Source: Ruminococcus albus 7 = DSM 20455
Lineage (GTDB): Bacteria > Bacillota > Clostridia > Oscillospirales > Ruminococcaceae
DNA length: 32,000 bases
Direction of reading: 5' to 3'
NCBI RefSeq assembly: GCF_000179635.2
Contig: NC_014833.1
Span: forward strand, 3,180,001 to 3,212,000
The stretch's first letter is position 1; each line of letters opens with the position of its first letter. Position numbers and translations under genes: made by a program. The notes under the pieces were generated by a model. That model worked only from the letters and a program-made list of their open reading frames with translations, searched no databases and was not told the DNA's origin. Below are positions 13,453 through 31,391 of this stretch, in pieces.

Positions 13453-14472
13453 GGTTATCCCTTTAACACACCACAGATAATTTACAATGCTGTCCAAATA
13501 AACAGACCTCAAAAACCGGAAAATATAGTATAATAGTGACAGGAAACGAAAGGAGCTGTCGCTATGTCAAAAAGATTTCCGAAACCTGAGATCACACTTG
13601 ATGGGATATATTCAAAGTTCGCAGATGAAAGCTTTTGCAAGGATTTTCTGCTTGATATCCGCTTTGAAAAGGGCTTTGCCTGCCCGTTTTGCGGTGGCTC
13701 TGAGTACCGCAGGATAAGGTCACGCCATCTGCTGCGCTGCAAGTTCTGTAAAGCAGATATATCCGCCACAAACGGAACTTTTATGCACAGAACACATATT
13801 CCGCTCAGACTGTGGATAGTCACCGCATTCCTCATTATGAGCAACAAATGCAGTGTTTCTGCTGTTACGCTGATGAGGTCTTTGGGGGTGACCTACAAGA
13901 CTGCATGGTACATCCTTCACCGCATCAGAAAAGCTATGAAATGCCGTGAAGAACGCTATTTGCTCGACGGAATCGTTGAACTTGATGACACGTATCTCGG
14001 TGCTCCGACTCACGGTAAAAAGCGCGGCAGAGGTACTGAAAAAGTCAAGATGATCGTAGCTTTATCGAAGAACGCAGCAGGAAATCCCGAGTACGTTAAA
14101 ATGAGAGATGTGCCGAATTTAAAGGGTATAACTGTGGGTAGATTTGCCAGGGATAATATCCGCGCTGGCTCGAAGATCGAGAGTGATAATGCTCGAAGTT
14201 ACAAGAAACCGTTGGCACAGAAATACTTCCATGTTTTTGAAACATATGATCCGACAAGCGGTCAGCTGAATTGGATGCATAAAGTTATATCAAACTTCAA
14301 AGCAATGATCATGGGAACTTACCACGGAAACGAAAAGATCCACACAGCGTTATATGCTGCCGAATACTGTTACAAATTCAACCGTCGTAAGCTGGGAAAC
14401 AGTGCGTATTTAAGGCTTTTGGCTGCTTTGGTGCAGTGATCTTACTTGTGGTGTGTTAAGGGGATAACCATA
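13450..14472 (+). mobile_element. IS1595-family insertion sequence (~1.02 kb) with 26-bp imperfect terminal inverted repeats and 8-bp TSD
   Basis: IRL 13450-13475 is cATGGTTATCCCtTTAACACACCACA; the rc of IRR 14447-14472 is tATGGTTATCCCcTTAACACACCACA (24/26 identical). The direct repeat TTATCTTT is at 13442-13449 and 14473-14480. There is a single transposase ORF. Confidence 0.85.
13564..14439 (+). CDS. IS1595-family DDE transposase with N-terminal zinc ribbon
   Basis: 291 aa. Zinc ribbon CPFCGG..17..CKFC, helix-turn-helix-like GVTYKTAWYILHRIRKAM, DDE-type motifs VELDDTY, IESDNARSY, AEYCYKFNRR. AAAGGAG lies 8 nt upstream of the ATG. Confidence 0.85.
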   Translation: MSKRFPKPEITLDGIYSKFADESFCKDFLLDIRFEKGFACPFCGGSEYRRIRSRHLLRCKFCKADISATNGTFMHRTHIPLRLWIVTAFLIMSNKCSVSAVTLMRSLGVTYKTAWYILHRIRKAMKCREERYLLDGIVELDDTYLGAPTHGKKRGRGTEKVKMIVALSKNAAGNPEYVKMRDVPNLKGITVGRFARDNIRAGSKIESDNARSYKKPLAQKYFHVFETYDPTSGQLNWMHKVISNFKAMIMGTYHGNEKIHTALYAAEYCYKFNRRKLGNSAYLRLLAALVQ

Positions 14473-14561
14473 TTATCTTTTTCTGCAGCTGCGATGATCT
14501 CATCGAACAATCTTTTCTTTGTATCTGTCTCATATCTCTTTACTCCGTCCGAAAATCGCAT
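14473..14561 (-). pseudogene. 5' fragment (30 codons) of the anti-sigma factor gene, severed by the IS
   Basis: ATG 14561-14559 has AAGGAGG (rc of 14571-14577) 9 nt upstream and overlaps the sigma gene 3' end by 32 nt. It reads MRFSDGVKRYETDTKKRLFDEIIAAAEKDN, then runs into the IS and stops after 9 IS-encoded codons (TAA at 14444-14442). Confidence 0.7.
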
Positions 14562-19986: not shown

Positions 19987-20016
19987 TTGACATTAATAAA
20001 CTTAATGCGATATAAT
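19987..20016 (+). promoter_or_regulatory. sigma-70-like promoter of the toxin gene
   Basis: TTGACA, 18 nt, TATAAT. This places the transcription start near 20023 and supports the downstream ATG 20076 as the real start. Confidence 0.55.
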
Positions 20017-20075
20017 ATTGGATGTCTATTTTTGTAAATCTAATGGATTTACATACTATGAAAGGAGTCGTGTTA

Positions 20076-23000
20076 ATGAACACAATACCCAAGCGCAAAC
20101 CAACAAATAAGTTGATTGCTATGGTGCTTGCCATAACAATGACCTGCGTTTATGTGGTCGGAGATAACTATGCTCCGATTGTCGCAGAGAAAAGCAAGCC
20201 CAAATCAACTAATTTGTTAACCCAAACACTTGATTACAGTACAGACTTGTTCCCAAATACGGAACTCAGGGATGTTAGTGAACTTGTGTTGGCAGAGAAT
20301 ACGACATATATGGGCAAAGCGAGTCAATCACTGGCCGAAGCATTTGCTAATATGCCGGAGAACGTGGAGTCAAGTGAGGAACTTGAGAAAAGCGTTGCTG
20401 ATTTCAGCAAACAGATCTCAGAGCTAAAAGCTCGTACTCTTGATGAATTAAGGGGGAGCGACAATGGCTCAGCTGATTTTTCTGAATATCAGAACACCGT
20501 CGTATCAGGTTACAATGATCTTGAGGAATTACTGTCAAATGTTACTGTTGAAAATTATGAAACAGTAATGGCAGATATTTCAGCTTTGATCAATCCTGAA
20601 AAACCTTATGTTTCACTTGCTGATGATCTACCGTTTAACGATATTTCGGAAGATAATATCACCTATTCAACATATAATCCCGAATCAGTTACCAATTATC
20701 AGATTGATGACGACAGTTATTCAAGCAATGATCTTCAGCAGACAAACGATACTATAATTAATGATGATGTAAGGACTGAATTTGCTGATTTTGAGAGTGT
20801 GCTTGAAGTATATCAGTACATCAAAAACAACTACATGATGGAGTTCTATTTCGGCTCACGAAAGGGTGCTGTCGGTGCTTCTGCTGAAAAAGCCGGAAAT
20901 GACTATGATATAGCCAGCCTCCTGATCGGTGTACTTCGTGACAGGAATATCCCTGCACGATATGCGACAGGAGAAATTGAGATCACAGCTAAACAGGCCA
21001 TGGAATGGACTGCTACAGATGACATCAATGTAGCTATACGCTCAATTGCTGCTCTTGGAATCCCAACTACGGGAATGATCTCTAACGGTGAAACAGTTGC
21101 GGTCAGATTAGAGCATACATGGGTCGAAGCATATGTTCCTTATACGGATTATCGAGGAACAGGTAATCGTTCCGGCGAACGCCTTTGGATTCCGCTTGAT
21201 GCTTCTTTCAAGAAAGCAACACATCTTGACGGTAATGACCTTGAGACAATTAACGCTTATATGAGCGATGAATCAAATTATCTCAATGAAAATTCAGTTA
21301 TCAATGGAGTAAGTGTTTCAACCATAGCGAAATTGGTTGATGGCAAGGAATCGGCTTTTGTAAAGTATATGCTTGAAAACGGTTATGATTCTGTTGCTCA
21401 GGTTTTCGGTGGCAAAGAGATAATCTATGAAGATTTAGGATATTTACCGCTTTCACTGCCGTATAATAACGCTTCTGATACAGAGAGATATGACGATATC
21501 CCTCTTGATTACACTGATACCATCAACTTTAAGCTGTTTGGTAATTCGGCTTCGGGAAACAGTATCTATGGTGATGATTATATCAATAAAACCATTTATG
21601 CACCTGATGTTTACGGAAAAAGACTCACATTAACTTATGTTCCTGCAACACAGGCTGATAGTGATGTTATTTCAGAATATGGTAGTATTTTCTCAACTCC
21701 GACATATCTCGTCAAAATGAAACCTCAATTTGTTATTGATGGAGAAGTTATAGCTGAAGGTGGTGTATGTAATACAGGTTACACCCAAAAATACATTATT
21801 ACCCTTGGCAATAAAGCTTCCAGTCAGAATAACAGCGAAATAACAAATAATGTAACTGTTGGCGGAATGTATTCCATCGTTTTAGATTACGGTCATGTTT
21901 CTGAGATAGAATTAAATAATGTAAAATCTGTAGTCGATAATTTCTCCTCTAAAATGACGGAAGATAATTGCTATAACGAAAGTTACATGGGTGAAATGCT
22001 GTATGCAATAGGTAAACTTTATTTCTCTCAGCTTGATACATATAATGAAGTCGTTGCAGGTGTTCACAATGTTACAGCTACACGTTCCCTAAGCTTGGGA
22101 ATAATCGGCTTTAATGCTAACGTTACTTATACGTTTGGCGTTCCTTCCGAATTAAAGGAAGGCGGAGTGTTCCTTGATATCGGACACGATGTACATTGTG
22201 TTGTTTCAAATGATAATAGTAATGAATCTGAAAAGAAGTTCATGCTTGAAGCAGGTATGTATGCTTCTGCGATGGAACATGGTATTTTAGAGCAAGTTAC
22301 AGGAGTTGAATCTGTTTCAACTATAAAAGCGTTGCAGTATGCACAACAGAATAGTATTCCGATCCACTATATCACTAAGGAAAATCTTGATAGCGAAGTT
22401 GCACAGCTTACTTTATCTGATCATTTGATCAGTGATATCCGTTCTTCGGTTAATTCAGGAAAGATCATTATAATTCCTGAACGCGAAATAACAATACACC
22501 AGTGGACTGGCGTTGGCTATATGGTGCTTGATCCTGATACATGCGCTTGCGGATACATGATTTCAGGTGGAATGGCTGGCGGTGCTATGGCTTGGTGGGA
22601 AGTTCTTCTTAATACTGCAATAAACGTATTAGATGGTATTTGTATCGGACTAATGTGTTTAGACCTTGTTATCGCATTTCACGTGTTATTTTATCCGATG
22701 ATTATATTTGGTTGTGTGATGTCTTTTGTAGCAGGATATAGTATTGGAACTCATTTGTATAATGCTTTTTCAGGTGATGAATTTAATGTACGTGAATTCC
22801 AGGAAGCTATGATCGAACTCGCATCATTTGGTTTAACTATATGGGCTTTTGAAGGTTTAGATAAATGGATGGAGACTCCATCAGGCGAAGGTACCGGCGG
22901 AAGAACTCCTTCAGGTGAAGGAACAGAGGGTGGTAATCCAACTGGCGAAGGCACCGGAGGAAGAACTCCAGCTGGCGAAGGAACAGAAGGTGGTAATCCA

Positions 23001-23993
23001 GCCGGTGAAGGCACCGGAGGAAGAACTCCTGCTGGCGAAGGCACAGAAGGTGGTAATCCAAACGGTGAAGGCACGGGAGGAAAGACTCCTGCTGGTGAAA
23101 ATACAGAAGGAAAGAATACCATTGAACAGGCAAACGAAGAAGCTGGTAAAGCAAAGGGTGGAGCTTGCTTTATTGCTGGCACATTAATATCTACTTCATG
23201 TGGATACACTCCGATAGAGTGTATTAAAGCTGGAGATATTGTTAAGAGTTTTGACCCGGCAACGTTAAAAGTATCCAATCAGGTAGTTGAAGAAACTTTC
23301 GTTCGTCAAATTGATGAGTTGATAAAGATTTCTGTTAATGGTGAGATCATTTCTACTACTCCTGATCATCCGTTCTATGTTGCGCAAAAGGGATTTGTTG
23401 ATGCGGTAAAATTAAGAGCAGGCGATATTCTTATTACTGTTAATGGTGAATATGCCGTTATTACAATGATTCAGCATGAAATTTTAGAATCTTCTGTTGA
23501 CGTGTTTAATTTCAGAGTCTCTAATAATCACACTTACTTTGTTGGTGACAATGGAATTGGTGTTCATAATAATGATTGTGCAGAACCTAACAGTAAAATC
23601 GGAGGAAAAACTACAGCTAAAGATTGGGAAGGTAAAACCTCCGAACTGGCAAAAGAATCTCCTATTGAAATACCTGAAAATGTAGAAGGGAACATCAAAC
23701 ATAAAAATGGTTACGATCAGATTGAGTATAAATGGAGTACCGATGCGTACAAATATGAAGTAAGATGGCATACCCGTACTCCAGGTGCTCCTGAAGGTAA
23801 GGGTAATTCATGGGTAGTTACTAGAGTTACACGTGGTACACCCACAGGTCAAAGTAGAGTAACTCATATTTTGGTTGGTGAAGAATGGGTTCCTCGTTTC
23901 AAATGGCAAGCCGCAATTGATGCGTATCACGATGGCACTGCTTCAATTAGTCAATTAGAAATGTTAGATTTAGGACATGTGCCAGCACCATGA
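20076..23993 (+). CDS. polymorphic-toxin-like protein: N-terminal TM anchor, transglutaminase-like (Cys-less) core, large beta-rich region, hydrophobic helices, GEGT repeats, Hint domain, C-terminal toxin tip
   Basis: AAAGGAG lies 8 nt upstream of ATG 20076 (the track start 20022 would fall at or upstream of the predicted transcription start, ~20023). TM LIAMVLAITMTCVYVVG. TGase-like GNDYDIASLLIGVLRDRNIPARYATG .. EHTWVEAYV .. WIPLDAS. Hint motifs CFIAGT, TPDHPF, GVHNN. See findings. Confidence 0.85.
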   Translation: MNTIPKRKPTNKLIAMVLAITMTCVYVVGDNYAPIVAEKSKPKSTNLLTQTLDYSTDLFPNTELRDVSELVLAENTTYMGKASQSLAEAFANMPENVESSEELEKSVADFSKQISELKARTLDELRGSDNGSADFSEYQNTVVSGYNDLEELLSNVTVENYETVMADISALINPEKPYVSLADDLPFNDISEDNITYSTYNPESVTNYQIDDDSYSSNDLQQTNDTIINDDVRTEFADFESVLEVYQYIKNNYMMEFYFGSRKGAVGASAEKAGNDYDIASLLIGVLRDRNIPARYATGEIEITAKQAMEWTATDDINVAIRSIAALGIPTTGMISNGETVAVRLEHTWVEAYVPYTDYRGTGNRSGERLWIPLDASFKKATHLDGNDLETINAYMSDESNYLNENSVINGVSVSTIAKLVDGKESAFVKYMLENGYDSVAQVFGGKEIIYEDLGYLPLSLPYNNASDTERYDDIPLDYTDTINFKLFGNSASGNSIYGDDYINKTIYAPDVYGKRLTLTYVPATQADSDVISEYGSIFSTPTYLVKMKPQFVIDGEVIAEGGVCNTGYTQKYIITLGNKASSQNNSEITNNVTVGGMYSIVLDYGHVSEIELNNVKSVVDNFSSKMTEDNCYNESYMGEMLYAIGKLYFSQLDTYNEVVAGVHNVTATRSLSLGIIGFNANVTYTFGVPSELKEGGVFLDIGHDVHCVVSNDNSNESEKKFMLEAGMYASAMEHGILEQVTGVESVSTIKALQYAQQNSIPIHYITKENLDSEVAQLTLSDHLISDIRSSVNSGKIIIIPEREITIHQWTGVGYMVLDPDTCACGYMISGGMAGGAMAWWEVLLNTAINVLDGICIGLMCLDLVIAFHVLFYPMIIFGCVMSFVAGYSIGTHLYNAFSGDEFNVREFQEAMIELASFGLTIWAFEGLDKWMETPSGEGTGGRTPSGEGTEGGNPTGEGTGGRTPAGEGTEGGNPAGEGTGGRTPAGEGTEGGNPNGEGTGGKTPAGENTEGKNTIEQANEEAGKAKGGACFIAGTLISTSCGYTPIECIKAGDIVKSFDPATLKVSNQVVEETFVRQIDELIKISVNGEIISTTPDHPFYVAQKGFVDAVKLRAGDILITVNGEYAVITMIQHEILESSVDVFNFRVSNNHTYFVGDNGIGVHNNDCAEPNSKIGGKTTAKDWEGKTSELAKESPIEIPENVEGNIKHKNGYDQIEYKWSTDAYKYEVRWHTRTPGAPEGKGNSWVVTRVTRGTPTGQSRVTHILVGEEWVPRFKWQAAIDAYHDGTASISQLEMLDLGHVPAP
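22875..23117 (+). repeat. in-frame tandem repeat, 4 x 60 nt (20-aa unit TPxGEGTEGGNPxGEGTGGR)
   Basis: Read directly: TPSGEGTGGR TPSGEGTEGGN PTGEGTGGR TPAGEGTEGGN PAGEGTGGR TPAGEGTEGGN PNGEGTGGK TPAGENTEGKN. This stretch is more GC-rich than the surrounding gene. Confidence 0.9.
23166..23573 (+). other. Hint (pre-toxin HINT / bacterial intein-like) domain
   Basis: Begins at Cys codon 23166-23168 (block A CFIAGTLIS), block B TPDHPF (TxxH), and ends GIGVHNN (His-Asn at 23565-23570). About 135 aa with no endonuclease insert. Confidence 0.8.
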
Positions 23994-24160
23994 TAGATTA
24001 CACTTAGGAGGATTAATATATGAATCTTATAAAAATGGGAATAATGATATTGACAACACATTTTGTTTTATTGATGTCAATTTTATGTGGTACTGCTTCA
24101 ATTAGTCAATTAGAAATGCTAGATTTAGGATGTGAGCCAACACCATGATAGATTACACTT
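23937..24160 (+). repeat. direct repeat A/A' (69 nt each): toxin 3' end plus the first 16 nt of the immunity gene
   Basis: A is 23937-24005 and A' is 24092-24160, with about 6 mismatches. A encodes ..TASISQLEMLDLGHVPAP*; A' encodes ..TASISQLEMLDLGCEPTP*. Both end in ATGATAGATTACACTT. Confidence 0.9.
24020..24148 (+). CDS. 42-aa chimeric ORF (signal-peptide-like head of the 1416-aa protein fused to the last 18 residues of a toxin allele)
   Basis: Below the ORF-track size cut-off. AGGAGG lies 8 nt upstream of ATG 24020. Sequence: MNLIKMGIMILTTHFVLLMSILCG-TASISQLEMLDLGCEPTP*. Its TGA (24146-24148) overlaps the immunity ATG (24145) as ATGA. Expression is unproven. Confidence 0.4.
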   Translation: MNLIKMGIMILTTHFVLLMSILCGTASISQLEMLDLGCEPTP

Positions 24161-24504
24161 TTTATTCAAGGTTTGAGGGTGAACCTGAAATTCGATTTAT
24201 AGCCAAAAAATGTAATAATGAATGTGCAATTGCTTTATGGGAAGGTTATTTTGATAGGATAATGTCTTTAATTTATCCTGAACCAACAGGCTGGACTGGT
24301 ATAGCTTATATTTATCATATGTATATTGGTTGGTATGATGATGAAATTTGGGAACTTAAAGATATACGGGATGCTTATCATAAATTCACATCTATTAACA
24401 TTGCTGATTTAGATGAAATGAGTCAAAAAGTGTTGGTTATTATCTGCGCATTTTTGAAATTGGCAATAGAAGATGGTTATAAAGTATTCATAAGTAGATT
24501 ATAA
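24145..24504 (+). CDS. putative cognate immunity protein (small cytoplasmic protein; possibly barstar-like)
   Basis: 119 aa with no signal peptide, immediately 3' of the toxin tip. It has no strong SD of its own, and its start overlaps the preceding stop (ATGA). ALWE motif at residues 30-33; C-terminus LAIEDGYKVFISRL. Confidence 0.65.
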   Translation: MIDYTFYSRFEGEPEIRFIAKKCNNECAIALWEGYFDRIMSLIYPEPTGWTGIAYIYHMYIGWYDDEIWELKDIRDAYHKFTSINIADLDEMSQKVLVIICAFLKLAIEDGYKVFISRL

Positions 24505-24656
24505 AATAGTTTTTCTACAAAAACTGTTTTATATACATCTGAATCTAAAAAATAAACAACATAGCATTAACGAAACGTAATACTTTGCTTACTTAAATTA
24601 TTCTGTTTATTTTGACTTCATAGATTTAGGTCAACAACAATTAGGAGGATTAATAT

Positions 24657-27600
24657 ATGAATCTTTTAAAAAGAGGAATAGCGATATTGACAACCCATTT
24701 TGTTTTATCGATGTCAATTCATTGTGGAGCTATTTCTCACGACCCTATAAATCCTGTTAAGTCTTTTGATGAATTAATCGACAACTCTTTAATTTATTTT
24801 AGTAAAACTCAAAATTATGAGAATGCGTGGGTCAAAAATAATCGAGACTACACTTCAGAAATAATTAATACATTGGAATATATATATACCAATGTTAATT
24901 TCATAAATGATAATCAAATCATGTTTTTGAAAATGATGGTCAATGATTCCGCCGATTATATATGGGAAAATGACTATAATAATATCGATGATGTAGCTAA
25001 ATATCTACTTGTAGATGAAATCGTCGATGATAGTGCTATTACTTGGATTTTATCCATTCAAAACCCCGACGGAGGCTTCGGTCTTGACGAAGGCTACACC
25101 AGCGACATCATCGACACAAAGCTGGCATTAAAGGCTTTGACCGATATAGGTGAGACCGAAGCAATGACAAATGCCGCGCTTTACATAGCATCACTGCAAA
25201 ATGAGGACGGTGGCTTTAGCTATCAGCAGGGATTAAGCTCTAATGCTTATCTTACTGCCGACATCGCTAATATCCTTGTTGACACAATAGATGTCAATCC
25301 AGTGCTGTCATACTATCTTGAAGATACTTTTAAAGCACTCGATGGCTATCTTGATACAACGTTTCCGGCCTTGAAGGATCTTTCGGCATATGACCTTGAT
25401 ACAGTGTATCAGCACTTCTATTCTGCACTGTACAGTCTGAAAAGGGATGGCCGCTATGATGTATCCGCATACTATGCTTTACAGGCAGAAGATGGCGGAG
25501 TGTTTGATGATCCTTTGGCTACGGCACTTTACCTTGAGCTGCTTGTAAGAGAGCAGAATGCACTGGTAGCTAATATTGATAATATCGCTATCACCAATTA
25601 TAAGGGCTACGCTGTGTCAGCTTTCAACTCAAACGAAAACGTCAATATCAGCGTTATCAATGAGTTTGAAACCAATAAGGCACATTTTGAAATGTCAATC
25701 ATTAAGCCTGACGGTACAGCTATTCCTCTTGATGGCGATAAAGCAGTATGGAATACTGCGGAAAATCCTGATGGAGAGTATACTGTTCGTGCTGAGATAA
25801 TTCGCGACTCAAATGATGAGGTTGCAAAGTCATTTGAACAGACTTTCAGAATTCAGCATCGTTTAGCAGTTGATAGCATTACACTTGCTTTGAGTCAGCC
25901 TTATTCAAGAGTTGGTGATACTGATCCTGTTGATGTTACAGCAGAATTTGATATCAGCAACTTTACAGAGGATGATCAGCTTTCTATCAACTGGACAGTT
26001 ACTGATGTTTCAGGTACTGTGATTTCCGAAGATACAGTTGATATTACCGAAGCCGATGTGGCTATGAACTACATTCAGCTTGGCAGCTTTACTCCCGATA
26101 CCTCTGAAAGAAATGCATATATCATCAAAGCAGAGCTTATGTCAGGAGAAAACCAGATCGCTCAGACTACTACAAACTACTTTGTATCTGACAAGAGCGT
26201 TGCCATAACCTACTCTACTGACAAGGACTACCTTACAGAGATAGATGATAATGCAGAAGTAACATTAAATCTGCGTGATGAAAGGGTCGTTGACCTTATA
26301 TTCACAACCTCATCTGAGAATACTGATCTTATCGACAAATATGCTGCAGAAATCGAAACGATCAAGGATAAGCTTGAAAGCATGGGATATATTGTAAATC
26401 TCAGCAATGTTTCAACATCATTCCTTTCTGCGAAAGACGCTCATGAATGGATAGAATATGATCACCCAGGATATGATACACAAACCGGATATACAAAACA
26501 TATTGTATCTGATAAAACGAATATTCAGATGCTTGGATATCGTTATGTACCGTATAAGGATTTCCTGTTTGTTCCTGATGAGAATGATTCACAGAAGATA
26601 TTTACCTTCGATATTCAGAGGGATAAGACTGACTGGCATAGTATGAACGGAGGTGGCTTCCTCTTTAATACCGAGATTGATTCAGAAGCAAATACGATTA
26701 GCGGATATTATGTTCTCATTATGCGTGATGGATTGAGATTATATGAATTAGATAAGGTGAATCTCGATACATTCAGAAACAATGGCTATGCCGGAAAAGC
26801 AATCCAGAAATTCCAATTTAAAGATGTTTATGCGGAACATCACATTAAGATCGTTGCAAACAGCGACACTGTTTCCCTATGGGATGGCGATGACATTGTG
26901 ATCGATAACGCAGAGCTTCCTAATATCCACGGTAATGGCTATGGACCGATCACCAGTCATGCAAGTCATAGTTGTAGTCAGAGATCATATTTTACATTTG
27001 CAAATATTACAATGCAGACCATCAAGGGCGAAAAGCTCCTGAATGTTCTTGATAATTACAATTTTGAAAGTGACAATAGCAGATATGTTATAAGCCTTAG
27101 TGATACTCCCATCGAAGATCTTGATGATGAGGAAGTACAGAAAAATGTTGCGCAGAAGATTGTTGATAAGAACATAACATTTATCGGACTTGGCGATGAA
27201 GACTCTACGGAACAGTATCGGCGTATAGCTCAGCTTATCCCGGACAATGCTTCTTTCTATGAGTATTCAGATAAAACCGCAGTCAATACAATTAAGAAAA
27301 ATATCATTGATACAGAAGAAGCTAAACGAATTCTGAATCCTGATGCTGTTGTAGCAACAGACCTTACTATAACTGGTGAACTGCCTGACGGCTCATCTTT
27401 TGTTCAGCAGTATGATAAACTACATGAAGGTGAGACTATCAGCTTTGTAGTACCCGTTGATTTGAATAATCTGACATCGGGTATTGATGCTATACTTTTA
27501 AAGAACATCAGACTTGATTATACTGATGAAAACAACATCGCAAGAGTCAAGACACTTGATAAGATAACACTTCCTGTTATTGGCTCTGAAGGAAAGATCA

Positions 27601-28907
27601 CCAATCAGGTCACAACTGATAAAGAGGCATACTACGAATATGAAGACGTAAATATCTTCGATAGAATACACAATAATTCTGACATCAGAGCTGCAAAGGG
27701 ACTTACAAATGTAATTACCATCGCGGATTCTGAGGGCAATGTAATCACAGAATACTCTAAAACTCTTAGTGAGATCATGACAAAAAGCTATGTCGAGGTT
27801 TCAGAGATATGGAATATTGCAGATCAGCCCGAAGGACAGTATACTATAATTTCCAATGTTTACGATGGTGACATATTGGTGTCTGAAAGCCAGGCTGTTT
27901 TCGAAGTAATGAATCATGAACTGCCACAGTATGAGCTGACAGGTTATCTGAATACATCAGGTAAGCTGTTTAAGGCTGATGAGACTATTGATATAACCAG
28001 ATATATCGAAAATATTGGAAGATACGATATTGAAAATGGAACGATCAATATCAAGATCATAGACGTAGCACATGAAAAGGTAGTCTATGAAAGAGAAGAA
28101 GTTATTGACCTCTCCATTGGAGAAAACAATACAGATTCATTCAGTGTTGTTCCTGCAAATGATTTCACTTCAAGAGGCGGTAAGGAATACCTTATCACTT
28201 ATGAAGTAACAACAGAGAACGGTCAGACAATTGAATTACCGGGCGATGGCTTTATGCTTGACGGCTTTGATTTCTCATTTATGGGAGTCGACGTTCTGTT
28301 TTCTATGAATGATGATGCGTCAATAAAGGGTATTCAGATGAACGGCTGGCTTATGAATGTATACGGCAGTATGCACTCAAATTCCAATGTTGAAGCAAAC
28401 TGCTCTATTATTACAGTCGAAGGTGATTGTTCATCAGTATCAGGAGCACAGTTCAATACTTGGCAGACACTGCTTGAAAATGATCCGATCACTTCTGAGT
28501 TTATTGAATTCCCTGATGTACTGAGTGTAATTAAATCGAGATTAGAGGAAACAATACTCAGCATTGAAAACGGCTGGACAAGTGAGAACGAAAATGAATT
28601 CAGGATCTACGGAAACAGTGTTGTAGCTGACTCTGATATATTCAGCAGTAAATCCCTGATCATTGATCCCAGCAACTGCTTTGCTTCATCATCCGATGAA
28701 GGTATCCTTATTTGCAGTGAAAAAGATATAACTATCAGGTCAACTGATGTGGATATCAAGGGTATTATCTATGCTCCAAACGGAACAGTAAGGATCGAAT
28801 CAAACAACTTCAATATTCACGGAAGGATCATTGCTAAGAATATCATATTCCAGGGTAGTATCTTTAATGGTGAAACATTTGATCGAGATTTGAACCAGTT
28901 TAATTAA
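24657..28907 (+). CDS. 1416-aa secreted multidomain protein: prenyltransferase/terpene-cyclase-like (alpha/alpha toroid) repeats, Ig-like modules, lectin-like insert, beta-helix-like C-terminus
   Basis: AGGAGG SD. Signal-peptide-like MNLLKRGIAILTTHFVLSMSIHCGA. Three QNxDGGF-type repeats (SIQNPDGGFG, SLQNEDGGFS, LQAEDGGVF) lie at about 25050-25515. The C-terminus is ..IKGIIYAPNGTVRIESNNFNIHGRIIAKNIIFQGS.. Confidence 0.8.
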   Translation: MNLLKRGIAILTTHFVLSMSIHCGAISHDPINPVKSFDELIDNSLIYFSKTQNYENAWVKNNRDYTSEIINTLEYIYTNVNFINDNQIMFLKMMVNDSADYIWENDYNNIDDVAKYLLVDEIVDDSAITWILSIQNPDGGFGLDEGYTSDIIDTKLALKALTDIGETEAMTNAALYIASLQNEDGGFSYQQGLSSNAYLTADIANILVDTIDVNPVLSYYLEDTFKALDGYLDTTFPALKDLSAYDLDTVYQHFYSALYSLKRDGRYDVSAYYALQAEDGGVFDDPLATALYLELLVREQNALVANIDNIAITNYKGYAVSAFNSNENVNISVINEFETNKAHFEMSIIKPDGTAIPLDGDKAVWNTAENPDGEYTVRAEIIRDSNDEVAKSFEQTFRIQHRLAVDSITLALSQPYSRVGDTDPVDVTAEFDISNFTEDDQLSINWTVTDVSGTVISEDTVDITEADVAMNYIQLGSFTPDTSERNAYIIKAELMSGENQIAQTTTNYFVSDKSVAITYSTDKDYLTEIDDNAEVTLNLRDERVVDLIFTTSSENTDLIDKYAAEIETIKDKLESMGYIVNLSNVSTSFLSAKDAHEWIEYDHPGYDTQTGYTKHIVSDKTNIQMLGYRYVPYKDFLFVPDENDSQKIFTFDIQRDKTDWHSMNGGGFLFNTEIDSEANTISGYYVLIMRDGLRLYELDKVNLDTFRNNGYAGKAIQKFQFKDVYAEHHIKIVANSDTVSLWDGDDIVIDNAELPNIHGNGYGPITSHASHSCSQRSYFTFANITMQTIKGEKLLNVLDNYNFESDNSRYVISLSDTPIEDLDDEEVQKNVAQKIVDKNITFIGLGDEDSTEQYRRIAQLIPDNASFYEYSDKTAVNTIKKNIIDTEEAKRILNPDAVVATDLTITGELPDGSSFVQQYDKLHEGETISFVVPVDLNNLTSGIDAILLKNIRLDYTDENNIARVKTLDKITLPVIGSEGKITNQVTTDKEAYYEYEDVNIFDRIHNNSDIRAAKGLTNVITIADSEGNVITEYSKTLSEIMTKSYVEVSEIWNIADQPEGQYTIISNVYDGDILVSESQAVFEVMNHELPQYELTGYLNTSGKLFKADETIDITRYIENIGRYDIENGTINIKIIDVAHEKVVYEREEVIDLSIGENNTDSFSVVPANDFTSRGGKEYLITYEVTTENGQTIELPGDGFMLDGFDFSFMGVDVLFSMNDDASIKGIQMNGWLMNVYGSMHSNSNVEANCSIITVEGDCSSVSGAQFNTWQTLLENDPITSEFIEFPDVLSVIKSRLEETILSIENGWTSENENEFRIYGNSVVADSDIFSSKSLIIDPSNCFASSSDEGILICSEKDITIRSTDVDIKGIIYAPNGTVRIESNNFNIHGRIIAKNIIFQGSIFNGETFDRDLNQFN

Positions 28908-28975: not shown

Positions 28976-29158
28976 ATACGTAAGCGTATAACCCCCAGCA
29001 CCTACCCCACCGAAGTCTAATAAAGTATAATAAACTCCAAGGAACACCATGAAGTAAATTGAATAATCCAAATTGATCCATGGAGTTCATTGGAGACGAT
29101 TAGACAAGGAGGTAACAGGTATGGACAAAACAACATCCATCACAACAATCAAAAAGAA

Positions 29159-29437
29159 ATGCAGCTTCAGGAATGGTCTGCGCAGATCAAAGCACAGCAG
29201 GCAAGCGGTCTGACGATCCGGGAATGGTGCAAAGAAAAAGGGATCAAGCCAAACACGTATTACAACCGCCTAAGAAAAGTTCGTGAAAAGTATATCGAAA
29301 ATTCTCCGACCATCGTTCCTGTATCAGTTCCTTGCTCAAACGAAAATATCCGCATTGAGAAAAACGGACTTCAAATATCTCTTCCGGCAGATATATCTGC
29401 GGACACTCTGACCGCTTTGGTGCATGAGCTATGCTGA
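29159..29437 (+). CDS. tnpA: IS66 accessory protein TnpA (OrfA), conservative start
   Basis: ..EWSAQIKAQQASGLTIREWCKEKGIKPNTYYNRLRKV.. is a typical IS66 OrfA HTH. ATG 29159 has no SD. A strong SD plus ATG at 29121 is in the +1 frame relative to this ORF (see finding). The track start at 29090 is a TTG. Confidence 0.7.
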   Translation: MQLQEWSAQIKAQQASGLTIREWCKEKGIKPNTYYNRLRKVREKYIENSPTIVPVSVPCSNENIRIEKNGLQISLPADISADTLTALVHELC

Positions 29438-29787
29438 ATGATCTGGCAGCGGACGCACAGGTCTATCTTGTTACGGGATACACCGACCTTCGACGCGGGA
29501 TAGACGGACTTGCGACTATCGTTCAGGCTCAGCTTCGACTTGACCCGTTCTCGAAAGCATTGTTTTTGTTCTGCGGCAGACGTTGTGACCGCATCAAAGG
29601 TCTGCTGTGGGAGGGCGATGGTTTTCTGCTGTTGTACAAGCGCCTTGACAACGGAAGATTCCAGTGGCCGCGCAGTGAGACCGAAGCAGTAATGCTCACA
29701 TCTCAGCAAATTCGCTGGCTTCTGGAAGGCTTGAAAATAGAGCAGCCGAAGGCTATCCGTGAGGGAAAGCCGGGGGCGCTGTATTAA
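29431..29787 (+). CDS. tnpB: IS66 TnpB (Orf2)
   Basis: ..VYLVTGYTDLRRGIDGLATIV......LFLFCGRRCDRIKGLLWEGDGFLLLYKRLDNGRFQWP.. is the IS66 Orf2 signature. It overlaps the tnpA stop by 7 nt. Confidence 0.9.
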   Translation: MLNDLAADAQVYLVTGYTDLRRGIDGLATIVQAQLRLDPFSKALFLFCGRRCDRIKGLLWEGDGFLLLYKRLDNGRFQWPRSETEAVMLTSQQIRWLLEGLKIEQPKAIREGKPGALY

Positions 29788-29879
29788 GGCAATACTTACC
29801 GAATATTCAGAATATGTGCTTGAAAAGCCCCTCTTTTCGTGGTATCATTAAAGTATCATCACGAACGGAGGGGTGCTTT

Positions 29880-31391
29880 ATGTCCGAACCAAATATGACA
29901 TCGGAAATTGTATCGCTCCGTAATGAAAACGCTGTTCTCAAGGAAGAACTAGCACTTGCCAATCAGCAGTTAGCGTGGTTCAGAAAGCAGATATTCGGAA
30001 GAAAAACAGAGCAGACATCTGTTGTTATGGAAAAGGAGTTCGGTGTTCAGCTTTCCATGTTCGGAAACAATGAAGAAAAATCCGCAGCTAAATCTGCCGA
30101 AACAATTACTGTTCCCGAACACAAGCGCAAGAAAAAACGCACTCACGATGAATGGATGAACAATCTGCCTGTAAAAGAAGAACATCACAAAATTGACAAC
30201 CCGGTATGCGAAATATGCGGCGCCGAAATGGAAGAACTGACTCCCGAAAAGGCTTACGATGAACTTATATTTACGCCGCCAAAATATCATATCCGCAGGC
30301 ATATAGTACATAAGTACAAGTGTCCCGAGTGCGGAGAAAAGCCCGAAGAAAGGGACGAACCTTGTCATATCATCCGTGCGCCATATCCTCACGCTATGAT
30401 CCCGGGAAGCTATTGCTCTCCCGAACTTCTGGCTCATATCATCTACGAAAAATATGCAAAGTCAGTACCTCTGCACCGTCAGGAAAAGGACTTTAATTCC
30501 AAAAACATACCTCTGCTCAAAGCGACTATGTCTAATTGGGTAGGCACTGCTGCCGAAAAATGGTGTTTGCCGATTGTGGAGAAAATGCATGAGACGCTTA
30601 TCGCAGGGCAGATGATCCATGCCGATGAAACGACCGTTCAGGTGCTTCACGAGGAAGGCCGAAAGCCTACCACGACATCAAGAATGTGGGTCTACTGCAA
30701 CGGCAAAATGAATGACAGGAGCATCATCATTTTCGATTATCAGCCGACACGAAAGGGTGAGCACGCCTCGAATTTCCTGAAAGGATTTATCGGCTATCTT
30801 ATCTGTGACGGATACGATGCCTACAATGCAGTCGAGGGTGCTAAGCGATGCGGCTGTATGACTCATGCAAGGCGTGGTTTTATTCAGGCTCTTCCGAACG
30901 ACCAAAAGCTGCACAGCACTTCTGTTGCGGCAAAGGCAGTAGAATATTTCAACAAGATATATCACGAAGAAAATCTGCTTGCCGACAGCTCCACAGAATA
31001 CAGATATAAACAGCGCCTTGTGAAGGTAAAGCCTTTGCTTGACGAGTTTTTTGCGTGGCTTGAAAATGTTCAGGTCAGTGGTAAGGGCAAGCTGACAGAT
31101 GCAGTAAGATATGCGTTGAATGAACGGAAATATCTTTACACGTTTCTTGAAAACGGAGACGTGCCTATCGACAACAACAGAGCCGAAAACGCAATAAGAC
31201 CGTTTGCGTTAGGCCGAAAAAATTGGCTGTTTTCAAATACAGCAAACGGAGCCAGATCAAGTGCAACGCTGTATTCGATCATTTCAACTGCACAGGCGAA
31301 CGGTGTTGATGCTGAGAAATACCTGACCGAGCTGTTTTCACAGCCTGCGGGGACGATATTATTACCATGGAGGGAAGAAAATGAAACTTAG
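29880..31391 (+). CDS. tnpC: IS66-family DDE transposase TnpC
   Basis: GGAGGGG SD upstream of ATG 29880. N-terminal leucine zipper (LRNENAVLKEELALANQQLAWFRKQIFGRKTE), zinc finger CEICGAEM...CPECGEK, catalytic core IHADETTVQVL, C-terminal NNRAENAIRPFALGRKNWLF. Confidence 0.9.
   Translation: MSEPNMTSEIVSLRNENAVLKEELALANQQLAWFRKQIFGRKTEQTSVVMEKEFGVQLSMFGNNEEKSAAKSAETITVPEHKRKKKRTHDEWMNNLPVKEEHHKIDNPVCEICGAEMEELTPEKAYDELIFTPPKYHIRRHIVHKYKCPECGEKPEERDEPCHIIRAPYPHAMIPGSYCSPELLAHIIYEKYAKSVPLHRQEKDFNSKNIPLLKATMSNWVGTAAEKWCLPIVEKMHETLIAGQMIHADETTVQVLHEEGRKPTTTSRMWVYCNGKMNDRSIIIFDYQPTRKGEHASNFLKGFIGYLICDGYDAYNAVEGAKRCGCMTHARRGFIQALPNDQKLHSTSVAAKAVEYFNKIYHEENLLADSSTEYRYKQRLVKVKPLLDEFFAWLENVQVSGKGKLTDAVRYALNERKYLYTFLENGDVPIDNNRAENAIRPFALGRKNWLFSNTANGARSSATLYSIISTAQANGVDAEKYLTELFSQPAGTILLPWREENET

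What the first reader, a model, noticed from the sequence alone, without database searches (positions are those of the whole stretch)
23937..24727. Interleaved diverged direct repeats (A-B-A'-immunity-spacer-B') at the toxin/immunity junction create a chimeric leader ORF
The last 54 nt of the toxin, its stop codon and the first 16 nt of the immunity gene (A, 23937-24005) recur at 24092-24160 (A', about 91% identical; three codon changes, H/V/A to C/E/T). The RBS and first 24 codons of the 1416-aa gene (B', 24643-24727) recur between them at 24006-24090 (B, about 88% identical). As a result, the real toxin stop now overlaps only a vestigial 5-codon MIDYT* stump of the immunity gene. B and A' fuse in frame into a 42-aa ORF with a strong AGGAGG SD, and the intact immunity gene keeps its ATGA stop/start coupling, but to this chimeric ORF instead of to the toxin. 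The pattern looks like a tandem duplication of [A..B] followed by an internal deletion. Given the 9-12% divergence, it could alternatively be recombination with a different allele of the locus, that is, a scar of toxin-tip/immunity cassette exchange. The arrangement is also recombinogenic: A x A' would restore the canonical layout, and B x B' would delete the immunity gene.
Basis: seen in the sequence. Interest (0 to 1): 0.7.

Follow-up and report, generated by a model that had tools for sequence, protein, structure and literature searches.

The report
Rearrangement scar in toxin-immunity cassette
In the rumen bacterium Ruminococcus albus 7, a real 155-base patchwork copied from two neighbouring gene ends sits between a secreted toxin gene and its immunity gene; it forms a short new reading frame that probably now feeds ribosomes to the immunity gene, and it looks like a one-off recombination scar, not a new kind of system.

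Summary
A (23933-24005) recurs at 24088-24160 (92%). B' (24643-24727) recurs at 24006-24090 (88%). Together they make a 155-bp insert that encodes a 42-aa ORF led by AGGAGG, whose stop overlaps the immunity start (ATGA). It is not an assembly artefact: the same DNA appears in the R. albus 7 record set (a 3.69-Mb contig, the DSM 20455 draft) and in six independent read-set assemblies.

The locus is a three-gene operon: a signal/TM-transglutaminase-PT-HINT polymorphic toxin, an immunity gene, and a 1416-aa secreted protein. Relatives keep the operon but swap a cassette (window ~23590-25056). None of them has the insert. The toxin tip and the immunity gene travel together in dozens of other loci.

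Best reading: the insert is a scar of illegitimate recombination at short microhomologies (TGG; ACAnTT). The dispensable copies have since decayed: A' lost an invariant His, and changes are AT-biased. The 10% divergence equals that between natural alleles of this cassette, so an origin inside the genome and import of another allele cannot be told apart.

That the 42-aa ORF drives immunity translation is plausible but untested. The immunity gene has a weak, mis-spaced SD. The ORF's SD and ATG are untouched and its frame is open (joint P about 0.04). Interest is modest.

The parts
19987..20016 (+). Promoter-like site with perfect consensus, TTGACA-18-TATAAT, upstream of the toxin operon
   Evidence: 12 of 12 matches. 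No + strand terminator-like site lies between here and the end of the 1416-aa gene apart from one inside the toxin ORF at 21168. Operon transcription is inferred, not shown.
20076..23993 (+). Polymorphic toxin gene (ADU23311.1, 1305 aa; the mechanical ORF starts at 20022). It has Transglut_core, a Pro/Gly/Thr-rich linker with 30/60-nt tandem repeats (22875-23110), PT-HINT, and a C-terminal toxin tip.
   Evidence: Pfam PT-HINT E=6e-25 and Transglut_core E=5e-10. Tandem repeats. GenBank name and start. The SD duplex at 20076 is -12.1 kcal/mol against -0.9 at 20022.
23575..23993 (+). C-terminal toxin tip (about 140 aa) with the family motifs RWH(T) and a terminal G-H-W-x-A-P. It has sub-threshold similarity to Pfam Ntox30.
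   Evidence: Alignment A2 of 14 homologues; R68, W69, H70, G138 and H139 are invariant. Ntox30 best E=1.9e-4, below the cutoff. No PDB match.
23590..25056 (+). Exchangeable cassette of the operon: toxin tip, immunity gene, spacer, and the first ~133 codons of the 1416-aa gene
   Evidence: blastn of the window against L022, L023, L067, L069 and L010. The flanks are 77-93% identical. Homology stops at ~23542-23590 and resumes at 25051-25059 in every comparison. The N-terminal ~140 aa of the big protein is only 22-41% identical among alleles.
23933..24005 (+). Repeat A: the last 18-19 toxin codons, the stop, and the first 16 nt of an immunity-gene start (functional toxin tail ...LGHVPAP*)
   Evidence: It keeps the family-invariant Gly-His.
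23990..24007 (+). Vestigial immunity start, MIDYT*. Its ATG overlaps the toxin stop and its TAG overlaps the SD of the 42-aa ORF.
   Evidence: Read directly.
24006..24160 (+). The 155-bp insert, B (24006-24090) plus A' (24088-24160), joined at a shared TGG. It is absent from every related operon.
   Evidence: Relatives have none.
24006..24011 (+). AGGAGG Shine-Dalgarno of the 42-aa ORF, a copy of the SD of the 1416-aa gene
   Evidence: Duplex with the anti-SD is -10.2 kcal/mol, equal to that of the big gene.
24020..24148 (+). Chimeric 42-aa ORF (ADU23312.1): 24 codons copied from the signal-peptide start of the 1416-aa gene, fused in frame to 18 codons copied from the toxin tail. Its stop overlaps the immunity ATG.
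24145..24504 (+). Immunity gene (ADU23313.1, 119 aa), with no Pfam family and only a weak, mis-spaced SD of its own
   Evidence: Homologues lie directly downstream of toxins that carry the same tip in many loci. SD duplex is -7.9 kcal/mol with a bulge, against -8.6 to -11.6 in relatives that have an SD.
24505..24656 (+). AT-rich spacer between the immunity gene and the 1416-aa gene
   Evidence: It holds a weak promoter-like match at 24612-24641 (9 of 12) and an AT-rich inverted repeat at 24549-24613.
24637..24736 (+). Repeat B': SD, ATG and the first 24 codons of the 1416-aa gene (the functional copy). ACAATT immediately precedes the SD.
24657..28907 (+). Third operon gene (ADU23314.1, 1416 aa), a secreted protein with prenyltransferase/terpene-cyclase-like alpha-alpha toroid repeats. 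Its N-terminus is hypervariable and the remainder conserved.
   Evidence: Pfam. 54 homologues, all of similar length. It follows the immunity gene in L010, L022, L023 and L067-L072.

Best explanation
The structure is a fixed scar of illegitimate, microhomology-guided recombination. It lies inside the exchangeable toxin-tip/immunity cassette of a Sec-type polymorphic toxin operon of Ruminococcus albus 7.

The ancestral layout is the one still seen in relatives: toxin, ATGA overlap, immunity gene, spacer, SD, big gene.

Two joints were made. One joined codon 24 of the big gene to codon -19 of the toxin, at a shared TGG. The other joined codon 6 of the immunity gene to the base before the big gene's SD, at ACACTT/ACAATT. 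This could have happened in two steps: a 637-bp tandem duplication of [A..B'], then a 482-bp deletion. It could also have happened in one event with two template switches. The partner DNA may have been the same chromosome or a ~10% diverged allele from another strain; this is not resolved.

Only products that keep the immunity protein made should persist in a toxin producer. That requirement would explain three features: the fusion is in frame, it keeps a strong SD and ATG, and it ends in the native ATGA overlap.

As a result the immunity gene, which has no good SD of its own, is now translationally coupled to a short, efficiently initiated upstream ORF instead of to the 1305-codon toxin ORF. 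The two dispensable copies (B and A') have since drifted.

Shown: the anatomy, the uniqueness to this strain, the cassette limits, the toxin-tip/immunity linkage, and the decay of A'. Inferred: the order of events, the origin of the partner DNA, and the dependence of immunity translation on the 42-aa ORF.
For: 1. The repeats and ORFs are exactly as described.

2. The canonical layout without the insert is found in relatives with the same tip/immunity type (L010-L012, L014, L026, L027: toxin, ATGA, immunity gene, 80 nt, big-gene homologue). It is also found in relatives with other cassettes (L022, L023, L067-L072). None has comparable repeats.

3. The junctions carry microhomology. B' reads TGTGGaGCT and A reads GATGGcACT, giving TGTGGtACT in the fusion. 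The immunity gene reads ACACTT|TTT and the sequence upstream of B' reads ACAATT|AGGAGG, giving ACACTT|AGGAGG.

4. The region is prone to such events. The only near allele of the immunity gene (L009, 89.4% nt) is itself an orphan whose homology starts at immunity codon 2. After the stop it jumps 500 bp to window 25023, at the edge of the conserved part of the big gene.

5. A' has lost the family-invariant His of the toxin tail (GH to GC), while A keeps it. Changes from parent to insert are AT-biased, 9 against 3, and B has lower GC than B' (0.25 against 0.31).

6. Translation signals. The first 23 nt of the insert (SD, spacer, ATG, three codons) carry no change although the insert has 16 changes in 155 nt, and the frame is open. 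In a simulation of random substitutions, P(open frame and ATG kept) = 0.30, P(SD to ATG intact) = 0.11, and both together = 0.043. The immunity gene's own SD is weak (-7.9 kcal/mol, bulged, mis-spaced) against -10.2 for the 42-aa ORF.

7. It is reproducible in independent assemblies.
Against: Only one strain carries the structure, so there is no comparative test of selection on the 42-aa ORF. The 0.043 is a post hoc figure from a single locus.

The microhomologies are short (3 nt perfect; 5 of 6), which is not far from chance.

A 10% divergence is large for an event inside one genome. It either needs a long time or points to a foreign allele.

Adjacent substitutions are over-represented (5 pairs, P about 0.016). 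Simple independent drift does not predict this, although natural alleles of the immunity gene show the same habit.

No expression data were available. The immunity gene might be translated adequately from its own weak SD.
Confidence: 0.6

Rival explanations
1. Import of a diverged allele by homology-facilitated illegitimate recombination. DNA from another R. albus-like strain with the same cassette type (about 10% different) was anchored by homology in the conserved part of the toxin gene. Its far end, inside the start of the donor's big gene, was joined illegitimately to the tail of the resident toxin. This displaced the resident toxin tip but kept the resident immunity gene, as proposed for immunity-gene arrays in Vibrio and for Rhs C-terminal displacement. 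The incoming immunity copy was later deleted, leaving the 5-codon stump. Under this reading A and B are donor sequence, and A', the immunity gene and B' are resident sequence.
For: The divergence between copies (16 of 155, 10.3%) equals that between this immunity gene and its only near allele, L009 (38 of 357, 10.6%). The codon patterns are similar: 3 synonymous and 8 non-synonymous codons against 14 and 19, and 4 against 5 multi-nucleotide codons. Diverged alleles of the right distance therefore exist in nature. The cassette is clearly exchanged between strains. The mechanism has been proposed for effector/immunity loci, including displaced effector 3' ends (PMC5361080, read).
Against: No donor-like allele of A or B was found in the genome, metagenome, plasmid or protein searches. 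Two alleles 90% identical over the whole cassette would normally recombine homologously, not illegitimately. A' lacks the invariant His, so decay in place is needed anyway. This reading still needs a second event, the deletion of the incoming immunity gene.
Confidence: 0.3
2. The 42-aa ORF is a working small-protein gene. It would encode a membrane-inserted or secreted peptide, for example a helper for toxin export, a second immunity factor or a signal peptide, born from the fusion and now kept for its product and not merely for translational coupling.
For: The N-terminal 24 residues are a copy of a signal peptide. All four radical changes there (R6M, A9M, S18L, H22L) raise hydrophobicity, from a mean Kyte-Doolittle value of 1.1 to 2.1 over residues 6-23. 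The frame is open and it has a strong SD. GenBank and RefSeq annotate it.
Against: The same changes are what AT-biased decay produces (9 GC-to-AT against 3 AT-to-GC). No homologue exists: its protein cluster has one member, and no related operon has such an ORF. Non-synonymous changes dominate, consistent with no constraint on the peptide sequence.
Confidence: 0.06
3. Assembly or sequencing artefact: a mis-join or local mis-assembly created the duplication.
For: None beyond the general suspicion that attaches to short local repeats.
Against: The DNA is identical in the DSM 20455 draft and in six independent short-read assemblies, and the products are recorded on a 3.69-Mb contig. The copies differ at 16 positions, so reads place unambiguously. 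Assemblers do not invent diverged copies.
Confidence: 0.01

Closest known systems
Polymorphic toxin systems with an N-terminal (inactive) transglutaminase domain and a pre-toxin HINT domain, exported by the general secretory route (Zhang, de Souza, Anantharaman, Iyer & Aravind 2012, PMC3482391)
   Same: The architecture matches: signal/TM, transglutaminase-like domain, linker, PT-HINT, variable C-terminal toxin tip. An immunity gene lies immediately downstream. The tip and immunity gene are swapped as a cassette between close relatives.
   Different: There are no RHS repeats here. A conserved third gene (about 1416 aa, terpene-cyclase-like repeats) always follows, and its first ~133 codons belong to the variable cassette. 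I did not find this described in the papers I read. Whether the transglutaminase catalytic triad is intact was not examined.
Orphan immunity genes with remnants of the displaced effector's 3' end: Rhs C-terminal displacement, CDI orphan modules, and T6SS effector-immunity arrays explained by homology-facilitated illegitimate recombination (Kirchberger et al. 2017, PMC5361080)
   Same: An intact immunity gene is preceded by a short relic of a toxin 3' end (A'), downstream of a full-length toxin. The junctions lack long homology. Other members of this immunity family also occur as orphans with truncated toxin tails, or in immunity arrays (L009, L042, L054).
   Different: There is only one immunity gene, not an array. 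The relic and the live toxin tail are the same type (92% identical), not different types. The relic is fused in frame to a copy of the downstream gene's start, making an interleaved A-B-A'-B' pattern instead of a simple series of displaced modules.
Translational coupling through overlapping stop/start codons and leader ORFs (ATGA overlaps in operons; mok-hok as a leader ORF needed for translation of a toxin gene). This comparison is from general knowledge and was not checked in a paper here.
   Same: A short upstream ORF with its own strong SD ends in an ATGA overlap with a downstream gene that has a poor SD.
   Different: The leader here is an accidental chimera of two neighbouring genes and is unique to one strain. 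Coupling has not been demonstrated.
Microhomology-mediated tandem duplication/deletion and template-switch rearrangements (general mutational class; from general knowledge)
   Same: The repeats are direct. The B|A' joint is the end-to-start joint expected of a tandem duplication of [A..B']. Both joints lie at short microhomologies.
   Different: The copies are 7-12% diverged instead of identical, so the event is either old or involved a foreign allele.

Membership tests
Polymorphic toxin system (Sec-type, transglutaminase / PT-HINT class) | Large secreted protein with a pre-toxin HINT domain directly before a C-terminal toxin domain | tested here: met
   PF07591 PT-HINT at residues 1055-1184 of the 1323-aa ORF, E=6e-25. 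About 140 residues follow it.
Polymorphic toxin system (Sec-type, transglutaminase / PT-HINT class) | N-terminal part conserved and C-terminal tip variable among close homologues | tested here: met
   L022, L023 and L025 match residues 1 to ~1190-1230 at 78-80% identity and then carry unrelated tips. The nucleotide homology stops at window ~23542-23590.
Polymorphic toxin system (Sec-type, transglutaminase / PT-HINT class) | Cognate immunity gene immediately downstream that travels with the toxin tip | tested here: met
   Homologues of the 119-aa protein lie directly after homologues of this tip in more than 30 loci with different toxin bodies, including an RHS/YD-type context. Relatives with other tips have other small genes at that position.
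Polymorphic toxin system (Sec-type, transglutaminase / PT-HINT class) | Toxicity of the tip and its neutralisation by the immunity protein | not testable with these tools
   There is only sub-threshold similarity to Ntox30 (best E=1.9e-4), which Zhang et al. predict to be an RNase. No solved structure matches.
Effector displacement / orphan immunity scar (homology-facilitated illegitimate recombination) | Immunity gene preceded by a truncated 3' piece of an effector gene | tested here: met
   A' is the last 18 toxin codons plus the stop, directly before the intact immunity gene.
Effector displacement / orphan immunity scar (homology-facilitated illegitimate recombination) | A second, complete effector-immunity module of another type sits upstream of the orphan | tested here: not met
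   The upstream toxin is the same type (tail 92% identical) and is followed only by a 5-codon immunity stump.
Effector displacement / orphan immunity scar (homology-facilitated illegitimate recombination) | An identifiable donor allele | tested here: not met
   Nothing closer than 56% (immunity, metagenomes), 67% (tip), or 41% (big-gene N-terminus). There is no plasmid match. The one near allele (L009, 89% nt) lacks the A and B regions.
Tandem duplication plus deletion / template switch | Direct repeats whose novel joint equals the end-to-start joint of the duplicated segment, with microhomology | tested here: met
   The B|A' joint is at a shared TGG. The A|B joint is at ACACTT/ACAATT.
Tandem duplication plus deletion / template switch | Copies identical or nearly so (a recent event) | tested here: not met
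   There are 16 differences in 155 nt.
Translationally coupled leader ORF | Upstream ORF with an SD whose stop overlaps the start of a downstream gene that has a poor SD | tested here: met
   AGGAGG lies 8 nt before ATG 24020. There is an ATGA overlap at 24145-24148. SD duplex energies are -10.2 against -7.9 kcal/mol.
Translationally coupled leader ORF | Leader conserved in related loci | tested here: not met
   It is unique to R. albus 7. Its protein cluster has a single member and it is absent from all related operons.
Translationally coupled leader ORF | Downstream translation depends on translation of the leader | not testable with these tools
   This needs reporter fusions or ribosome profiling.

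The most novel reading that the evidence does not exclude
The scar has been co-opted. The chimeric 42-aa ORF would be maintained by selection as a dedicated translational leader. It would uncouple immunity synthesis from completion of the 1305-codon toxin ORF, so that immunity protein is made in excess and ahead of the toxin. This would be a ready-made example of a regulatory upstream ORF born from a duplication of neighbouring gene ends. Divergence of the repeats to runs of 27 nt or less of perfect identity would lock the arrangement against loss by recombination.
Probability: 0.25. Interest if true: 0.5.

Novelty: new variant of a known kind. Interest (0 to 1): 0.3.

Why it matters
Toxin-immunity loci must change without ever leaving the cell unprotected. 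This locus shows a rearrangement that cut the immunity gene off from the toxin's stop codon and yet survived. It appears to have survived because the joint recreated a strong ribosome-binding site, an open frame and the original stop/start overlap. If that is confirmed, it shows how the need for immunity filters which recombination products persist, and how a small upstream ORF can arise from scraps of neighbouring genes.

For annotation, ADU23312.1 is most likely a by-product of this event and not a conserved protein.

The wider locus may deserve more attention than the scar. It is a conserved toxin / immunity / 1416-aa protein operon whose variable cassette reaches into the third gene.

Tried and rejected
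- Assembly artefact. Rejected: identical DNA in eight fetched loci from independent assemblies.
- Known RNA element in 23000-25500. Rfam at permissive thresholds gave only one chance-level hit.
- Stable mRNA structure around the junction. The fold of 23985-24185 is no better than shuffles (z=+1.1).
- Recurrent feature of this operon family. No comparable repeats were found in eight related cassettes.
- Donor allele. I searched species-representative genomes, metagenome contigs, the 5.8-billion protein set with the immunity protein, the big protein and the toxin tip, and plasmids. Nothing close was found except the orphan in L009.
- Second, degenerate copy of the operon in R. albus 7 (ADU21078.1 and ADU21080.1) as a possible donor. 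Its DNA could not be fetched. Its big-gene fragment matches the P0010 allele closely where I compared the two sequences by eye, so it is unlikely to hold A- or B-like sequence.
- Diversity-generating (adenine-specific) mutagenesis as the source of the clustered changes. Rejected: only 3 of the 16 changed positions have A in the parent copy.
- Positive selection on the peptide. Non-synonymous changes dominate (8 codons against 3), but this does not differ from neutral expectation or from the pattern between natural alleles.
- Identity of the toxin tip. Profile searches of PDB and Pfam gave nothing above threshold.

Full report

Yes, base for base.
- The repeat finder reports A 23933-24005 against A' 24088-24160 (73 nt, 92%). 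It reports B 24000-24099 against B' 24637-24736 (100 nt, 85%, including junction microhomology).
- The core 23-27-mers occur exactly twice in the window, with none expected by chance.
- The toxin ORF ends at 23993. Its TGA overlaps ATG 23990 of a five-codon stump, MIDYT*. The stump's TAG runs into AGGAGG (24006-11).
- ATG 24020 opens a 42-aa ORF that ends at 24148, overlapping ATG 24145 of the 119-aa gene.

**2. Is it an artefact?**

No.
- The 1.3 kb around it is 100% identical in the draft assembly GCA_000621285.1 and in six assemblies of separate sequencing runs. One contig form was seen in 20 or more samples.
- The four proteins are also on record from a 3,685,408-bp contig of Ruminococcus albus 7 = DSM 20455. 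There the 42-aa ORF is annotated as ADU23312.1.
- The two copies differ at 16 positions, so they cannot be an assembler's duplicate.
- All these records are one strain. They show reproducibility, not conservation.

**3. What is the locus?**

- The upstream gene has a transglutaminase-like domain, a repetitive Pro/Gly/Thr linker, a PT-HINT domain (E=6e-25) and then about 140 residues with no Pfam family. Its true start is most likely 20076.
- This is the architecture of Sec-dependent polymorphic toxins with N-terminal transglutaminase domains described by Zhang et al. 2012 (PMC3482391).
- The tip belongs to a family with invariant R-W-H and a terminal G-H-(W)-x-A-P (alignment A2). It has only sub-threshold similarity to Ntox30 and no PDB relative.
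- Homologues of the 119-aa protein lie directly downstream of homologues of this tip in more than 30 fetched loci. These include toxins with quite different bodies. The toxin/immunity labels are therefore well founded by linkage, though not by experiment.
- A perfect consensus promoter lies at 19987-20016. No + strand terminator-like site follows the toxin gene before the third gene.

**4. The operon and its cassette**

- Relatives of the toxin (78-80% identity over residues 1 to ~1200; L022, L023, L025) and of the 1416-aa protein (P0010 and others; L067-L072) all show the same three genes: toxin, a small gene, and a protein of about 1410-1425 aa.
- Nucleotide comparison puts the limits of the variable segment at window ~23542-23590 (just after PT-HINT) and 25051-25059 (codon ~133 of the third gene) in every pair.
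- The first ~140 residues of the third protein are only 22-41% identical among alleles, while the remainder is highly conserved.
- Both repeats A/A' and B/B' therefore lie inside the exchangeable cassette.
- In the relatives that share this tip/immunity type (the L010 group), the layout is the canonical one: toxin, ATGA, immunity gene, 80 nt, SD, third gene.
- None of the relatives has the 155-bp insert or any comparable repeat.

**5. How did the insert arise?**

- The B|A' joint is what a tandem duplication of the 637-bp segment [A..B'] would create. It lies at a TGG shared by both parents (B' TGTGGaGCT, A GATGGcACT).
- The A|B joint lies at ACACTT in the immunity gene against ACAATT just before the SD of the third gene.
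- A duplication followed by a 482-bp deletion gives exactly this product. So does a single replication event with two template switches.
- The region is visibly prone to such accidents. The only near allele of the immunity gene (P0002 in L009, 89.4% nt) is an orphan in an immunity-gene array. Its homology begins at codon 2. After the stop it jumps to window 25023, the edge of the conserved part of the third gene.

**6. Same genome or foreign allele?**

This is unresolved.
- The insert differs from its parents at 16 of 155 positions (10.3%). That is 8 non-synonymous and 3 synonymous codons, four codons with 2-3 changes, and 5 adjacent pairs (P about 0.016 under independent placement).
- The window's immunity gene and the L009 allele differ at 38 of 357 positions (10.6%). 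That is 19 non-synonymous and 14 synonymous codons, five multi-change codons and 5 adjacent pairs.
- The amount and style of divergence are therefore what two natural alleles show. It fits the homology-facilitated illegitimate recombination model proposed for effector displacement (PMC5361080).
- Against it, no donor was found in any collection.
- Some decay in place is needed on either view. A' has replaced the family-invariant His by Cys, whereas A keeps it. Changes run GC to AT 9:3, and B has dropped to 25% GC.
- My rough split is one half internal, one third imported, and the rest something else.

**7. What does it do now?**

Shown:
- The immunity gene keeps its native 57 nt upstream and the ATGA overlap, but the ORF that ends there is now the 42-aa chimera.
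- That ORF has the same AGGAGG and spacing as the third gene (-10.2 kcal/mol).
- The immunity gene's own SD-like sequence is weak, bulged and badly spaced (-7.9). Relatives have GGGAGG or TAGGAGG (-8.6 to -11.6).

Inferred:
- Ribosomes reach the immunity start mainly by terminating on the 42-aa ORF. Immunity synthesis would then no longer be limited by completion of the 1305-codon toxin ORF.

Indirect support:
- The first 23 nt of the insert (SD, spacer, ATG, three codons) are unchanged and the frame is open. Under random placement of the 16 changes, both hold together in 4% of trials. This is a post hoc test on one locus.
- A survivorship argument fits as well: a rearrangement that silenced the immunity gene would not persist in a toxin producer.

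**8. Recombinogenic?**

A x A' would restore the canonical layout, and B x B' would delete the immunity gene. But the longest perfect runs are 27 nt and 25 nt. All seven assembled contigs that carry the immunity gene show one layout. I therefore expect low rates.

**9. Is the peptide itself functional?**

Probably not.
- The radical changes in B all increase hydrophobicity. AT-biased drift does the same.
- There is no homologue anywhere.

**10. Verdict**

This is a real, well-described structural scar in a known kind of locus, with a plausible but untested regulatory consequence. It is unusual in geometry: interleaved repeats that build a leader from the neighbouring gene's start. It is not a new kind of system. 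Interest is modest.

Noticed in passing
window 24657-25056 (first ~133 codons of the 1416-aa gene); compare L010, L022, L023, L067: The variable cassette of this operon does not stop at the immunity gene. It runs into the third gene. The N-terminal ~140 residues of that protein are only 22-41% identical among alleles, while the remaining ~1280 residues are highly conserved. The break falls at the same point (window 25051-25059) in every comparison. This suggests either hitch-hiking with cassette exchange or a functional link between that domain and the toxin/immunity pair.
   Followed up: partly
L009 2027-2494 (GCA_054286765.1, JAZTHG010000195.1): This is an orphan copy of the same immunity gene (84% aa, 89% nt) in an array with a SUKH-type immunity gene. 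It has a new five-residue N-terminus. After its stop there is a direct jump into a 70-nt relic of the conserved part of the 1416-aa gene. It is a second, independent illegitimate-recombination product of this cassette.
   Followed up: partly
elsewhere in the R. albus 7 chromosome (ADU21078.1, ADU21080.1; not in the window): The strain carries a second, broken copy of the operon. It consists of a 115-aa N-terminal toxin fragment and a 792-aa C-terminal fragment of the third gene, the latter of the P0010-like allele. The DNA could not be fetched.
   Followed up: partly
window 13564-14474 and 29090-31391: Mobile elements lie on both sides of the operon. An IS1595-family transposase gene lies about 5.5 kb upstream of it. 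The gene's last ~70 nt and ~35 nt beyond its stop (14370-14474) are 100% identical to a 105-nt fragment just upstream of the homologous toxin operon in L069, and they match the first 79 nt of L067. An IS66 element (orf1, TnpB-like, DDE transposase) lies about 180 nt downstream of the 1416-aa gene. In L069 a large serine recombinase lies upstream of the operon.
   Followed up: partly
window 24657 vs 24921 (start of the 1416-aa gene): RefSeq (WP_157865482.1, 1328 aa) starts this gene 88 codons downstream of the GenBank start. That drops the signal peptide that homologues in L010, L022 and L023 and the B/B' repeat support. The 24657 start, with AGGAGG 8 nt upstream, is the better one.
   Followed up: partly
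window 22875-23110: There are 30/60-nt tandem repeats (7.5 and 3.9 copies) encoding a GEGT(G/E)G(R/G)(T/N)P linker between the toxin body and the PT-HINT domain. The short-read assemblies of the locus also break inside the toxin gene, but further upstream (at about residue 170-180 of the ORF), so these repeats do not explain that break. Copy number may vary between strains.
   Followed up: no
window 20022 vs 20076: The mechanical ORF of the toxin starts at 20022, only 6 nt after the -10 box of the consensus promoter and without an SD. The annotated start at 20076 has AAAGGAG (-12.1 kcal/mol) and is almost certainly the real one.
   Followed up: yes
toxin tail, window 23973-23993: The live toxin of R. 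albus 7 ends G-H-V-P-A-P. The Trp that follows the invariant His in the other 13 aligned homologues is Val here. Whether this affects activity is unknown.
   Followed up: no
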